This document shows positions 194-41,540 of a stretch of 64,000 bases of DNA, in pieces (position 1 is the first letter of the stretch; each line of letters opens with the position of its first letter). This DNA comes from Eledone cirrhosa (Eukaryota). The position numbers and the translations under genes were made by a program. A model generated the notes under the pieces. That model searched no databases. It was not told the DNA's origin and saw nothing but the letters and a program-made list of their open reading frames with translations. The stretch covers positions 399,032,001-399,096,000 of the forward strand of contig OZ024741.1 of NCBI GenBank assembly GCA_964016885.1, in the 5' to 3' direction.

Positions 194-546
194 AAACGGA
201 AAAAATGAAACGAAATTTCATTTCCCACTCTTAGTACGGCTGTTACTTAAATATAAGTATGTATACGTACATACATATATGTATACAGACATACAGTAGT
301 ATGTATATATATATACATACATGCACACATATATATATATGTACGTATGGATTCACCAAACATTTATTATAATGCACGGTGTGTTTGTAAACAAACATCC
401 CGTATTAATCCGTAGTGTCTAGCAACCACCGTCGCTCGTTTGTTCAACACTGACAAAGGAACGCTGTACTAGTTTCAAGCTTGTTAGCTATAAGTAACAG
501 CCGTACTAAGAGTGGGAAATGAAATTTCGTTTCATTTTTTCCGTTT
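194..546. mobile_element. Family X head-to-head element: minus arm 194-491 (truncated within HHR stem II) plus short plus arm 491-546
   Basis: ~55-bp inverted ends AAACGGAAAAAATGAAACG…GTTACTTA, flanked by (TA)n; near-identical to 25567-25865. Confidence 0.85.
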
Positions 547-715
547 ATATGTATATATATATATATATACACACACACACACACACACACACACACACAC
601 ACACACACACACACACACACACACACACACACACACACACACACATATATATATATATATATATATATATATATATATATATATATATATATATATGTGT
701 GTATATTTATATGCC

Positions 716-796
716 ACCACCATCTATTAGTAGGACCAACTGTAACACCACCAACACCACCATCTATTAGTAGGACCAACTGTAACACCACCACCG
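716..796. repeat. ~40-bp tandem duplication
   Basis: CACCACCATCTATTAGTAGGACCAACTGTAACACCACCA twice. Confidence 0.85.
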
Positions 797-894
797 CCAC
801 CATCCACAAGATCTACAACCATACCACTTCTACCACCATTACCTAAATCTCCGCCACCACAACTAGTATCGTAGTTTCACCAATCACAGTATCT

Positions 895-1240
895 ATTATT
901 TTAGTAAAAAGTGAGACAAACTATAAGGTAGGAGCATAAGGCCTGAAGAGGTGATGTTTCATTCATCATTTAATTATATAAAAAATAAAAAAAAATACTG
1001 GATGAAGAAAATCTGTCATTAAGTAGGAATATTCAATTGAGAACATCCCATGACAGAATTAACTAAAAATGACAATCGTGTCCACCACCAATGTATTATT
1101 TTAGTAAAAGTGAGACAAACTATAAGGTAGGAGCATAAGGCCTGAAGAGGTGATGTTTCATTCATCGTTTAATTATATATATAGAAAAACTAGATGAAGA
1201 CAATGTGTGGTTAAGTAGGAATATATTACTGACAACATTG
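895..1240. repeat. Imperfect ~200-bp-period direct duplication
   Basis: TATTATTTTAGTAAAA…GCCTGAAGAGGTGATGTTTC… at ~895 and ~1095. Confidence 0.8.
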
Positions 1241-1539
1241 AATACCAGAATTAGTAGAAATATTTCAGCTAAAAATCCTGTCCACCATCAATGGATGGAA
1301 TATATTTCGCTAGAAGACACAACACTAAACATATTTACCAATACCGACTGTCTTATTTACTTATTTATTTATTTATTTGTTTATCTATTTGTTTGTTTAT
1401 CGATTTATTTGTTTGTTTGTTTGTTTATTTATATATTTATTTGTTTGTTTGTATGCATATTTGGTTAATTTATTTTCATTTTCCATCATCTGAAGACAGA
1501 TTGTATTGTGTTCGCAATAAATACATACATATATACATA

Positions 1540-2363
1540 CATACATGATGGCTTCCCCCTCGTTATCGAGTATGGCCATTGCACGAGATAAAAACAACAA
1601 CAACAACAACAACAACAACATAATAATAATAATAATAATAATAATAATAATAATAATAATAATAACAATAATAATAACGACAACAACAACAATAACAATA
1701 ATAATATACACATATATATATACACACACACACTCATAAACATATCTACACACACACACACACACGATAGCAACTAACAGCGCTGCGACCGAATGTGGCT
1801 TTTTAGCCCAGCCAATGATCTAAAATGTCTTGCACAGAGTCGGCAACCAAAACATTCACTGGGAATAGTCGGCTGTGGCTGGAGTTCGTGTACTTTTGCA
1901 TGTCGCTTGAGCCCTCCTGCTGATTTACATTCTCTACCACATGTTTGGCAAGCATGATGAGTAGCATCTCCAACAGCAGCCTGGTAGTCAACCACTGGTC
2001 TTACTTTATGACTGCGAAGATGACTTTCGAGTCCAGCTTTGCTTAGGCAGAGTCTCGCACAGACGCTGCATGTCAGCACCATAGGAGGACCCTCGCCGTC
2101 TGGAAGTGCAACAGCAATGCCCTTCCTCACATCCCGCTTTATTTTCTCGTATGCGATTCGAGATGCCTCAAAGGCAACTTTTCCCTCATATACAGTCTTT
2201 CTCCATTTATTACGATCAGCAGCAATATTTTCCCATGTATCAGCAGAGATGTTAGCGTCTTTCAGAGAGGCTTTCAAGGAATCCTTATACCTCTTTTTTG
2301 GTTTATGTGGCGGTCGTTTTCCTTTAACCAACTCTCCATAAAAGAGTTGTTTTGGTATTCTAG
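1540..2363 (-). mobile_element. 5'-truncated RTE-clade LINE: ORF C-terminus with three C2H2 zinc fingers, 3' UTR and (ATGT)n tail
   Basis: Frame 2363-1774 reads RIPKQLFYGELVKGKR…KRYKDSLK…WENIAADRNKWR (RTE C-terminal signature), then CSVC…HLRSH, CQTC…HAKVH, CRLC…HIRS; terminal GGCCATACTCGATAACGAG…GCCATC(ATGT) at 1540-1580 matches other RTE ends here. Confidence 0.85.
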
Positions 2364-3611
2364 ACATACATACATACTGACATACATACATACATACTGA
2401 CATACATACATACATACTGACATACATACATACACACTGACATACATACATACACACTGACATACATACATACATACATACTGACATACATACATACATA
2501 CTGACATACACACTGACATACATACATACACACAGACATACATACATACACACTGACATACACACAGACATACATACATACACACTGACATACATACATA
2601 CACACTGACATACATACATACACACTGACATACATACATACATACTGACATACATACATACACACTGACATACATACATACACACTGACATACATACATA
2701 CATACTGACATACATACATACATACTGACATACATACATACACACTGACATACATACATACATACTGACATACATACATACATACTGACATACATACATA
2801 CACACTGACATACATACATACTGACATACATACATACACACTGATATACATACATACTGACATACATACATACACACTGACATACATACATACATACACA
2901 CTGACATACATGCATACATACATACTGACATACATACTTACATACTGACATACATACATACATACTGACATACATACATACACACTGACATACATACATA
3001 CATACATACATACTTACATACTGACATACATGCATACACACTGACATACATGCATACATACTGACATACATACTTACATACTGACATACATACATACACA
3101 CTGACATACATGCATACATACTGACATACATACATACATACTGACATACATACACACTGACATACATACATACATACATACTGACATACATACTTACATA
3201 CTGACATACATACATACATACTGACATACATACATACACACTGACATACATACATACTGACATACATACATACATACTGACATACATACATACATACTGA
3301 CATACATACTTACATACTGACATACATACATACACACTGACATACATGCATACATACTGACATACATACATACACACTGATATACATACATAGATACTGA
3401 CATACATACATACACACTGACATACATACATACACACTGACATACATACATACATACTGACATACATACATACATACTGACATACATACACACTGACATA
3501 CATACATACATACATACATACTGACATACATACATACATACATACATACATACATACATACATACATACATACATACATACATACATACATACATACATA
3601 CACACTGACAT
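2364..3611. repeat. Compound (CATA)n/CTGA minisatellite
   Basis: Units such as CATACATACATACACACTGA; source of the spurious MYVC ORFs. Confidence 0.95.
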
Positions 3612-39138: not shown

Positions 39139-39510
39139 GAGGGGTGAGTGGGTGAGTGGGGGTGAGGGTGTGAGTGGGCGTCGAGGTGGTGGTGAGTGGG
39201 GTGAGTGGGGGTGAGTGAGTGAGCGGGGGTGAGTGGGGGAGTGGGGGGAGTGGGGGAGTGAGTGAGCGGGGGTGAGTGGGGGTGAGTGAGGGTGAGGGGC
39301 GTGCGTGTGGGGGTGAGTGGAGGTCAGTGTGGTGGTGAGTGGGGGTGAGTGGGGGTGAGTGTGGGGGGAGTGGGGAGTGAGTGAGCGGGGGTGAGTGGGG
39401 GTGAGTAGGGGTGAGTGAGGGTGAGGGGCGTGAGTGTGGGGGTGAGTGGAGGTCAGTGTTGTGGTGAGTGGGGGTCAGTGTGGGGGTGACTGGTGGTGAG
39501 TGGGCGGTTT
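39139..39510. repeat. G-rich degenerate (GGGGGTGAGT)n repeat
   Basis: Many G4-7 runs. Confidence 0.85.
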
Positions 39511-39952
39511 CCGTATCATTTAAGAAGTGTGTGTGGATGTGTGTGAGTTTCTGTAGGCATGTGTGTGTGTGTTTCAGTATGTGAGCATCTGTAAGTGTCT
39601 GTGTGAGTGAGTGTTTCTTTCAGTGTGTGACTGTCTGTGAGTGTGAGGGTGTGTGTGTGTATCTGTGTATCAGTGTCTGTGTCTGTGAGTGTGTCTGTGA
39701 GTGTGTATCAGTGTGTGTGTATCTGTGTATCAGTGTGTGAGTGTCTGTGAGTGTGAGGGTGTGTGTGTGTATCTGTGTATCAGTGTGTGAGTGTCTGTGA
39801 GTGTGTCTGTGAATGAATGTGTATCAGTGTGTGTGTGTGTGTGTGTGTGTGTATCAGTGTGTATGTTTGTATCAATGTGTATCAGTGTGTGTGTGTGTGT
39901 GTGTGTATCAGTGTGTATGTTTGTATCAATGTGAATAATAATACAGTAATAA

Positions 39953-40042
39953 TAATTGTCTCTACTATTGGCACAAGGCCAGCAATTACCCCACTGGTAC
40001 TTTATTTTATCGACCCCGTCCTATGAGGCAAAGTTAACCTCA
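39953..40042 (-). mobile_element. SINE S1 3' fragment
   Basis: Core and tail match. Confidence 0.7.
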
Positions 40043-40919
40043 TAATAACGTTAATTTCACAAGCAGGCTGTTCCGTAGATTGTATTAACTGGAACACTGG
40101 TCGTTGTAACCGACGAGTGTCACACACACACACATATATATATATATATATATATATATATATATATATATATATATATATATATATATATATATATATA
40201 TATATATATATATATGTATATATATATATATATATACATATATATATATATATATATATATATATGTATATATGTATATATATATATATATATATATATA
40301 TATATATATATGTATATATGTATATATATATATATATATATATATATATATATATATATATATATATATATATATATATATATATATATATGTATATATG
40401 TATATATATATATATATATATATATATATATATATATAATATATATATATATATATAGATAATTTAATATATCTACTAACATAAGCGCACAGATGTACGC
40501 TAATGCCAGAAAATACACAGGTTATGTCATAGTACCTAGGTGGTTCAATGCAGGAGGATGCAGAACAATAATATAAAAGACGTAAAATAAGAAAATTAAA
40601 AAAAAAAAAAATTAACTTACTTACTTAAATATATATATATATATATATATATATATATATGTATATATATATATATATATATATATATATATATATATAT
40701 ATAGCGGCGATGAATTAGTTTAGCGAGGTTTTTTATATGGCGTAGACATACAACACAACAGGAGGAAAAGATATAACACCACTGCCGATGTTGCAGATGT
40801 GCAACGAAAGATTTATGATAAACTATATATATGTGTTTGTGTCTATATTGTATCTGTATTATTTTTGACCGTCGGTCAGTCAATGGCAACATTGAGGACC
40901 GAGTAAGTTAGATCGCAGA

Positions 40920-41019
40920 TATAAAAGACAGCGAGAAGCGAAAACCAACCAAACAGTGAGTGTGTTCTGTTATTAATTCTGACAATATTACACAAATATG
41001 ACCCTCCCCAAGTATAACA
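40920..41019. mobile_element. Family F terminus
   Basis: …ATGACCCTCCCCAAGTATAACA then (TA)n. Confidence 0.65.
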
Positions 41020-41335
41020 ATATATATATATATATATATATATATATATATATATATATATATATATATATATATATATATATATATATATATATATATG
41101 TATATATATATATATATATATATATGTTTATATATATATACATATATATATATATATGTATATATATATATATATATATATATGTATATATATATATACA
41201 TATATATATATATATGTATATATATACATATATATATATGTATATATATGTATATATATATATATATATATATGTATATATATATATATATATGTATATA
41301 TATATATATATATATGTATATATATATATGTATAT

Positions 41336-41540
41336 AACGAAGGAATTGTGGTAAGGAACCAGATGGACCATAACGCACCAGAGTACTCAATACTTAGGGT
41401 AGTAGAGTGGGTAATAGGAAAAAGTATGACCCCGACGGCAGAGCTCAAGCCGTTTCGACGGCTATTTCTAGACTCTTAACGTCTAGAAATAGCCGTCGAA
41501 ACGGCTTGAGCTCTGCCGTCGGGGTCATACTTTTTCCTAT
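41336..41540. mobile_element. Family A tail+hairpin mini-element (perfect arms)
   Basis: ~66-bp perfect inverted arms. Confidence 0.9.

What the first reader, a model, noticed from the sequence alone, without database searches (positions are those of the whole stretch)
194..41540. Multiple hammerhead-bearing mini-retroelement families inserted head-to-head into (TA)n microsatellites
Seen: about 15 inserts from at least 7 dissimilar families share most of one architecture. They are A x6, B at 7307/35535, C at 32525/38018, D at 6610, E at 8745, X at 194/25567, and 30682. Two copies of the same sequence point outward from a central junction; in A-E one arm has an extra 60-90 bp 3' tail; outer ends mostly run into (TA)n or another microsatellite. 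The arms contain a type I HHR or its GAAAC-stem III-GUH-stem I' half. Established: Penelope-like elements (PLEs) carry minimal type I HHRs in their pseudo-LTRs, often have an inverted tail-less pLTR at the 5' end, and some lineages favour microsatellites. Inference: these are not DNA MITEs but products of a PLE-type RT priming from both strands of a cut (TA)n site, so many apparent palindromes here are ribozyme retro-insertions. No RT/GIY-YIG ORF is present in the window, so the partner is unidentified.
Basis: partly seen in the sequence, partly recalled or inferred. Interest (0 to 1): 0.85.

Follow-up and report, generated by a model that had tools for sequence, protein, structure and literature searches.

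The report
Back-to-back stumps of Penelope retroelements
The mirror-image, ribozyme-bearing inserts are real, and five of the seven families are the cut-short tail ends of full-length Penelope-like jumping genes found elsewhere in this genome, a known layout whose strict one-tailed-arm pattern likely means that both cut DNA strands start copying the RNA at two different fixed points.

Summary
All 15 inserts are present. Complete type I hammerhead folds number 10 against 0.18 in shuffles (relaxed descriptor, widened after seeing the families). Families A, B, C, D and 30682 each run upstream, elsewhere in the genome, into their own RT + GIY-YIG ORF with Hydra-clade motifs. They are therefore 5'-truncated ends of autonomous Penelope-like elements (PLEs), not mini-elements or MITEs. 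E was not linked. X is a protein-free ~424-bp tandem hammerhead unit (retrozyme-like) with the same signature. Genome copies face outward, sit mostly in (TA)n, and have two fixed 3' ends. In 182 of 189 pairs (103 of 110 unbiased) exactly one arm carries the tail, and either arm can be the longer. This fits priming from both target strands at two RNA start sites, as reported in vitro for another PLE. Inverted pLTR, tail, (TA)n bias and an octopus Hydra family are all published (Craig 2021). The scan reached the same reading before, on other pieces of this genome and on other genomes. Verdict: new members of a known kind; the value is the genome-scale test of the mechanism.

The parts
194..545 (.). 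Family X insert: minus arm from inside the hammerhead to the tail end, plus arm = 57-bp tail only; both ends tailed (exception to the rule)
5520..5697 (.). Family A stub: tailed minus arm 5520-5639, tail-less plus arm 5638-5697; 3' half of hammerhead only
6538..7155 (.). Family D stub: tailed minus arm (163-bp tail), tail-less plus arm; hammerhead with CCGAAGA core at 6780-6742 (minus)
   Evidence: ORF link L231, L273
7306..7482 (.). Family B stub (older subfamily), tailed minus arm, degenerate core
8726..9090 (.). Family E stub, old and degenerate; relatives carry a complete long-stem-II hammerhead; no ORF link found
16817..17057 (.). Family A stub; a 5'-truncated LINE abuts its left (TA)n flank
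25565..27527 (.). Family X insert: partial tandems of the ~428-bp unit facing outward from about 26143; left end tailed, right end tail-less at 27527 after an ~800-bp interrupting element; complete minimal hammerheads at 25869-25839 (minus) and 26465-26495 (plus)
29647..29854 (.). Family A stub
29867..30225 (.).
30681..31019 (.). Family G ('30682'): tail-less minus arm with complete hammerhead 30788-30739, plus arm = tail
   Evidence: ORF link L377, L378
32204..32395 (.). Family A stub with a perfect palindromic junction
32523..32750 (.). Family C stub: tailed minus arm ending in (CA)n, tail-less plus arm with complete hammerhead 32652-32707
   Evidence: ORF link L268, L269
34550..34822 (+). 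Further PLE 3' end (J) with minimal hammerhead, ending in the (TA)n that precedes A at 34872
   Evidence: ORF link L010/L164, L219, L063
34872..35063 (.). Family A stub (diverged subfamily)
35534..35713 (.). Family B stub: tail-less minus arm with complete hammerhead 35594-35556, tailed plus arm
   Evidence: ORF link L341, L280, L287
37655..37822 (-). Further PLE 3' end (I) with complete hammerhead 37756-37702, single arm between (TA)n runs
   Evidence: ORF link L167, L233, L386
38018..38188 (.). Family C stub: tail-less minus arm with hammerhead 38113-38058, plus arm = tail
41334..41540 (.). Family A stub
   Evidence: genome copies

Best explanation
Five of the seven families are 5'-truncated, head-to-head 3' ends of full-length Penelope-like elements that encode a reverse transcriptase and a GIY-YIG endonuclease with Hydra-type motifs, and each insert likely forms when the endonuclease cuts both strands of a (TA)n tract and each strand primes copying of the element RNA at a different one of two fixed start sites. 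Shown: linkage to ORFs, partial-tandem full-length copies (pLTR-ORF-pLTR), two fixed 3' ends 57-163 bp apart, one tail per insertion, outward orientation, (TA)n flanks, variable 5' ends. Inferred: the distance between the two start sites is the 'tail'. The two cDNAs stop independently, very often inside the long stem II of the hammerhead, and are joined at their 3' ends, which gives the 150-350-bp palindrome-like stubs. Both arms likely come from the same RNA or source locus. X is a protein-free ~424-bp tandem hammerhead unit that likely borrows the same enzymes. The ribozyme is likely a passenger in these stubs; no cleavage was tested.
For: ORF links: A in L151, L152, L157 (pLTR+tail, ORF, 3' UTR, HHR; unit about 3.1 kb). 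B in L341, L280, L287. C in L268, L269 (same ORF, 91% identical over 1.4 kb). D in L231, L273. G in L377, L378. Model of the B ORF C-terminal half: top match I-TevI GIY-YIG domain, Z 8.9, rmsd 2.4 A over 89 residues; RT matches Z 6-7 on residues 38-200. Motifs RWR, DKT, YRDD, CxCx5C, CxxC..E..N..CxH. One-tail rule: 182 of 189 classifiable pairs, 103 of 110 after removing query-biased loci; X 10 of 10. Tail-less arm reaches further 5' in 87, tailed arm in 32, within 10 nt in 63 of 182 (A alone 16/15/36). Outward vs inward neighbours within 1.5 kb among the first 100 pattern hits each: A 19 vs 3, B 15 vs 1, X 10 vs 0. (TA)n follows 463 of 584 mapped ends. Two arms of one A insert differ by 1.27 of 24 letters vs 4.54 when shuffled (minimum 3.08 in 2000; 26 pairs). 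One B insert splits a short (TA)n that is intact in paralogous X units (42 matches). Frangieh 2024 (PMC11167929, passages read): a Poseidon PLE protein cleaves and extends both strands and starts at two RNA sites spaced by the tail.
Against: No biochemistry here. The in vitro study found no difference in start site between the two strands, so it does not by itself explain the one-tail rule. 7 of 189 pairs break the rule, as does X at 194, and 28 of 227 pairs had an end outside both classes. A third of pairs have near-equal 5' ends, often with palindromic junctions, which fold-back also predicts. Arm-length counts for C and G depend on where my queries began. E was not linked to an ORF in 30 loci; X has no identified driver. 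Pfam did not recognise the ORF pieces, PDB sequence search was empty, and Foldseek gave no match at E <= 0.001. No tree against published Hydra proteins. Every ORF copy that I read through had stops or frameshifts.
Confidence: 0.8

Rival explanations
1. Same elements, different route to the inversion: one nucleic-acid strand self-primes (folds back) and copies itself, and the endonuclease then resolves the hairpin at a TA-like site, leaving the tail on one side (Arkhipova 2013; Craig 2021 ascribe the tail to EN-mediated resolution).
For: 63 of 182 pairs have 5' ends within 10 nt. Many A junctions are perfect palindromes. The tail-less end sits at a TA-rich site in each family whose end I mapped. 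Fold-back explains at once why both arms share subfamily letters.
Against: A copy folded back from the tailed cDNA cannot reach further 5' than its template, yet the tail-less arm does so in 87 of 182 pairs, by up to 2.6 kb; in several the tailed arm is only part of the tail. Fold-back from the tail-less cDNA cannot make a tail.
Confidence: 0.15
2. The short stubs are self-propagating non-autonomous palindromic mini-elements with their own master copies.
For: Stubs vastly outnumber ORF-bearing copies: 34,606 exact A 3'-half 30-mers vs 703 exact RT 22-mers (subfamily divergence inflates the ratio). Sizes cluster (19 of 19 close A pairs spaced 43-76 bp). It does hold for X, and for a ~1.08-kb tandem derivative of B.
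Against: Junction sequences differ from copy to copy, so stubs are not copies of a master. Most A stubs lack the 5' half of the hammerhead. Long arms grade continuously into the ORF.
Confidence: 0.04
3. DNA MITEs with terminal inverted repeats that target TA.
For: Inverted ends and TA flanks.
Against: Variable arm length, asymmetric tail, tandem arrays, hammerheads with compensatory changes (B stem I GATTC/GAATC vs GCTTC/GAAGC), and continuity into RT-GIY-YIG ORFs.
Confidence: 0.01

Closest known systems
Hydra clade of C-terminal EN+ Penelope-like elements, including Hydra-1_Obim and Penelope-13_HM (Craig et al. 2021, PMC8557442)
   Same: Single RT-then-GIY-YIG ORF, DKT motif, CxCx5C linker, CxxC and CxH around E and N, 3' type I hammerhead, (TA)n targets, inverted 5'-truncated copy, tail on one end. 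B's core context (CUGAUGAU...UGAA) matches the Penelope_HM hammerheads in File S2.
   Different: RWR in place of RWK; units 3.1-4.2 kb rather than under 3 kb; tails 57-163 bp rather than 30-40; none of the hammerheads equals the listed Hydra-1_oBim one; at least seven ORF families here and tens of thousands of stubs.
Poseidon PLE of Anolis (PAc) in vitro (Frangieh et al. 2024, PMC11167929)
   Same: Both strands cleaved and extended in AT-rich DNA; two RT start sites spaced by the tail; hammerhead cleavage not needed for insertion.
   Different: Other clade; there the ORF starts inside the hammerhead, here it starts after the tail; that study saw no strand-specific choice of start site, whereas the genomic pairs here are almost always one of each.
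Non-LTR retrozymes (Cervera and de la Pena 2020, PMC7229834; Li, Clavereau and Pollet 2026, bioRxiv 10.64898/2026.07.22.740005) - for family X
   Same: Protein-free tandem repeats of 150-450 bp, low GC, one type I hammerhead per unit, dimers to multimers; proposed PLE origin.
   Different: X has a minimal stem III, and its arrays face outward from an inversion with one tailed and one tail-less end in (TA)n. I found no passage on such an arrangement in either paper (term searches). Expression and circularisation of X are untested.
PLE minimal hammerheads (Cervera and de la Pena 2014, PMC4209133)
   Same: Dual hammerheads 100-700 bp apart on opposite strands; U3-A8 core covariation (family A); palindromic loop 3 (X, D, E).
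   Different: A, C and E have stem II regions of 30-60 nt; A has a 5-bp stem III.

Membership tests
EN+ Penelope-like elements | Single ORF with RT and GIY-YIG endonuclease | tested here: met
   YRDD and GIY-YIG-like motifs in one reading path for A, B, D; fold matches to I-TevI (Z 8.9) and RTs (Z 6-7); one homolog has a weak Pfam GIY-YIG hit, E 0.0057, below cut-off
EN+ Penelope-like elements | Partial tandems forming pLTRs, inverted 5'-truncated copy, optional tail | tested here: met
   L151, L152, L157, L341, L273, L231; 182 of 189 pairs one-tailed
EN+ Penelope-like elements | Type I hammerhead in the pLTR | tested here: met
   Complete folds in genomic copies of A, B, C, D, E, G, X
EN+ Penelope-like elements | RT groups with PLE/TERT clade in a tree | not tested
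   No reference PLE proteins were on hand; TERT and other RT chains appear only at Z 5.6-7
Hydra clade | DKG changed to DKT; RWK motif at N-terminus | tested here: met
   SDKT/ADKT in A, B, D; the motif reads RWR, a conservative variant; C, G, I copies lack this region
Hydra clade | CxCX5C linker; CxxC and CxH flanking conserved E and N | tested here: met
   A, B, C, D, G, I
Hydra clade | CCHH motif absent from the endonuclease | tested here: inconclusive
   One Cys inside the GIY-YIG core in A and D, two in the B copy L341; not aligned to reference ENs
Hydra clade | Insertion into (TA)n | tested here: met
   463 of 584 ends; one paralogous empty site
Hydra clade | Generally short (<3 kb) | tested here: not met
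   A about 3.1 kb, B about 3.65 kb, D about 4.2 kb; a tendency in the paper, not a diagnostic
Hydra clade | Falls inside the Hydra clade in an RT+EN tree | not tested
   Published Hydra proteins could not be brought into the alignment tools
Non-LTR retrozyme (family X) | Protein-free tandem repeat of 150-450 bp with a complete type I hammerhead in two or more consecutive units | tested here: met
   18 of 19 same-strand spacings 420-433 bp; arrays L393-L400, L404-L406; 12,458 exact hammerhead 32-mers
Non-LTR retrozyme (family X) | Transcribed, self-cleaved and circularised | not testable with these tools
   No RNA holder listed
DNA MITE | Fixed length with fixed terminal inverted repeats and a DDE partner | tested here: not met
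   Arm 5' ends from +57 to -2906 relative to the tail-less end; partners are RT-GIY-YIG ORFs

The most novel reading that the evidence does not exclude
PLE integration is obligately two-ended and asymmetric: a dimeric RT-endonuclease on one RNA primes the two cut strands at two different sites set by a conserved tail motif (T[TA]GAG about 16-24 nt past the first site), stalls preferentially in its own ribozyme, and the retrozyme X hijacks this machine in trans. That would make the one-tail rule a genomic fingerprint for assigning retrozymes to PLE enzymes, and Hydra elements a major sculptor of the (TA)n landscape of this genome.
Probability: 0.45. Interest if true: 0.62.

Novelty: new member of a known kind. 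Interest (0 to 1): 0.35.

Why it matters
How PLEs make their inverted ends and tails is still open (Craig 2021 names it as the next task; Arkhipova 2013 proposed self-priming; Frangieh 2024 found two start sites in vitro). This genome holds tens of thousands of insertions, enough to test the models by counting: one tail per insertion, with either arm longer, favours two-site priming. X adds structural support that animal retrozymes move by PLE enzymes. Practically, these stubs will be mis-annotated as MITEs or miRNA hairpins (Rfam's top rows here are miRNA families). The kind of element itself is known, including in octopus.

Tried and rejected
Rfam: no hammerhead family named; these minimal or long-stem variants were found only by descriptor. 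Pfam on four ORF pieces: nothing significant; PDB sequence search with a 114-sequence profile: empty; Foldseek: no match at E <= 0.001, best rows RTs and T4 EndoII. An 81-bp search for B's upstream sequence returned nothing; a 28-mer pattern then worked. The C pair at 4.1-kb spacing (L267) was a local duplication with no ORF. E: no ORF upstream in 30 loci. X: no similarity to eight ORF-bearing elements beyond one that carries an X copy; the four 'links' come from three places, at differing distances (664, 842, 1399 bp) and to different ORF families, so I read them as chance insertions. F and F2: no consistent ORF link. Idea that arms end at the hammerhead cleavage site: no pile-up there in the lists; A arms start 35-50 nt upstream of it. 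Empty-site test with the LINE beside A at 16817: the 29 other copies continue as LINE, so the LINE is truncated into the flank and gives no empty site. Of 207 inserts screened for paralogous empty sites, 15 gave candidates and only L344 is convincing. No RNA holder listed for X. Contigs laid on 5395-5790 showed no piece spanning the site. The arm-concordance test for B crashed for lack of pairs.
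Full report
Observation. A self-BLAST and reading of the window find all 15 inserts. End mapping gives the coordinates listed under parts. In window 1-46600 a strict type I hammerhead descriptor finds 3 complete folds against a mean of 0.1 in 60 block shuffles, and 34 half motifs against 13.2. 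Rfam names no hammerhead. The window lies in a 3.0-Gb animal genome. Its SINEs look like octopus SINEs to me; that label is recalled and was not tested.

Family A. Thirty genomic copies have two fixed 3' ends and variable centres. One copy's long arm (L008) reaches the end of an ORF. Walking on gave full-length copies in L151, L152 and L157: upstream pLTR with hammerhead and tail, then an ORF starting just after the tail, 3' UTR and hammerhead again, unit about 3.1 kb. The full A hammerhead has a U3-A8 core and a long stem II; Cervera and de la Pena 2014 describe that covariation in Schistosoma PLEs (passages). The six window copies keep only the 3' half.

Other families. B: 4,907 exact 28-mers; pLTR-to-ORF junctions in L280 and L287 and a full-length copy in L341. 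C: L268 and L269 share one ORF running into the C end. D: L231 and L273. G (30682): L377 and L378, with a 2-kb 3' UTR. Two unlisted window repeats, I at 37655 and J at 34550, also link to such ORFs. E is old (best relatives about 83% identical) and was not linked in 30 loci.

The proteins. They carry RWR, DKT, YRDD, a CxCx5C linker, a GIY-YIG-like core and CxxC..E..N..CxH. Pfam and PDB sequence searches did not recognise them. 155 relatives of similar length exist, mostly unnamed. A model built on 114 sequences (mean pLDDT 82.5) matches the I-TevI GIY-YIG domain at Z 8.9 and reverse transcriptases at Z 6-7; Foldseek had no match at E <= 0.001. The motifs are those that Craig et al. 2021 give for the Hydra clade (section 11). 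Their supplement lists Hydra-1_Obim from Octopus bimaculoides with (TA)n preference, and an inverted 5'-truncated copy on Penelope-13_HM (parts of Files S1 and S2). I built no tree, so clade membership rests on motifs.

Family X. It has 12,458 exact hammerhead 32-mers. Same-strand neighbours lie 420-433 bp apart in 18 of 19 cases, arrays point outward from an inversion, and no ORF belongs to it. It has two 3' ends 57 bp apart and 10 of 10 mapped pairs use one of each. This meets the sequence definition of a non-LTR retrozyme (PMC7229834, passages; bioRxiv 2026.07.22.740005, first 10,000 characters and passages). Its expression is untested.

Anatomy across copies. Among 189 outward pairs of A, B, C, D, G with both ends classifiable, 182 have exactly one tail; without loci selected by tail- or palindrome-bearing queries, 103 of 110. 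One search, with shorter references, gave 192 of 199, with 28 more pairs left out for an unclassified end. Independent choice of end would give about half. The tail-less arm reaches further 5' in 87 pairs, the tailed arm in 32, and 63 are within 10 nt; for A alone 16, 15 and 36. Outward pairs dominate inward ones in unselected pattern lists (A 19 vs 3, B 15 vs 1, X 10 vs 0; first 100 hits each). (TA)n follows 463 of 584 ends; tailed ends of C often meet (CA)n. In 30 unselected A hits, 6 by eye extend past the hammerhead core; most of the rest begin in the 3' strand or apex of stem II. The two arms of one A insert share subfamily letters far more than shuffled pairs. A T[TA]GAG-like motif lies 16-24 nt into the tail of A, B, G and most C copies, recurs in E's tail, and has weaker forms in D and X; its role is inferred.

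Mechanism. Best reading: the endonuclease cuts both strands in (TA)n, each 3' end primes at a different one of two RNA sites, both cDNAs stop independently, often in the ribozyme, and are joined. Frangieh et al. 2024 showed both-strand cleavage and extension and two start sites equal to the tail for another clade, with hammerhead cleavage dispensable (passages); they saw no strand-specific choice, which the genomic rule here would require. Arkhipova et al. 2013 proposed self-priming (passages). Near-equal arms and palindromic junctions fit that, but a fold-back of the tailed cDNA cannot give a longer tail-less arm.

Comparison with what is known. Inverted pLTR, one-sided tail, (TA)n bias, dual opposite-strand hammerheads and an octopus Hydra family are in print. 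In five paper searches I saw no count of the one-tail rule or of arm lengths and no report of retrozyme arrays with this signature; subscription journals and the bioRxiv supplement were not seen. Earlier notes of this scan reach the same reading on other DNA; I had made the tests before reading them.

Verdict. Real, PLE-derived and mostly ordinary: new members of a known kind, interest 0.35. The mechanistic reading is testable and would deserve about 0.6 if confirmed.

Noticed in passing
window 12553-16807 (minus): Young 5'-truncated APE-RT LINE with an open 957-aa ORF (RVT_1 E 4e-36, Exo_endo_phos E 6e-15) and (TAA)n 3' end; 39 other copies are 99-100% identical over the 169 bp tested.
   Followed up: partly
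window 46655-64000: 17-kb satellite array with a 53-bp period, about 94% identity.
   Followed up: no
window 26708-27507: About 800-bp element with ~120-bp direct terminal repeats ending in CA and a 4-bp TGTA duplication, inserted into X just before its tail-less end; could be a TRIM-like or tandem element.
   Followed up: no
window 3616-4100: C-terminal end of a restriction-like-endonuclease non-LTR element (KRPDIVVWD...VEISCP) between (TACA)n repeats; R4/Dong-like by recall; no Pfam hit.
   Followed up: partly
window 1770-2365 (minus): 3' end of an RTE-like LINE with C2H2 zinc fingers, reading frame open over about 200 aa.
   Followed up: no
window 4799, 4955, 7925, 8572, 23256, 29010, 36441, 36892, 39940, 44282, 44655: About eleven copies of one SINE family, and a tRNA-like SINE head at 27625 that ends in a 78-bp inverted repeat (27744-27821).
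   Followed up: no
window 24860-25545: Helitron-like 3' end (helicase remnant, hairpin, CTAG) directly before the X insert; label from recall.
   Followed up: no
   Followed up: partly
L338/L339 (G000:C1:83.68-83.70 Mb): Twelve-unit tandem array of a ~1.08-kb non-coding derivative of family B, each unit with hammerhead and tail, next to an ORF-bearing copy: a retrozyme-like array apparently arising from its parent.
   Followed up: partly
L269 1500-2800: The 3' UTR of family C holds two extra tail-like motifs followed by a microsatellite block, as if the element had captured its own earlier insertion end.
   Followed up: no
L085, L119/L168: Chimeric arms that jump from one PLE family or region to another within one insert, suggesting template switching.
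   Followed up: no
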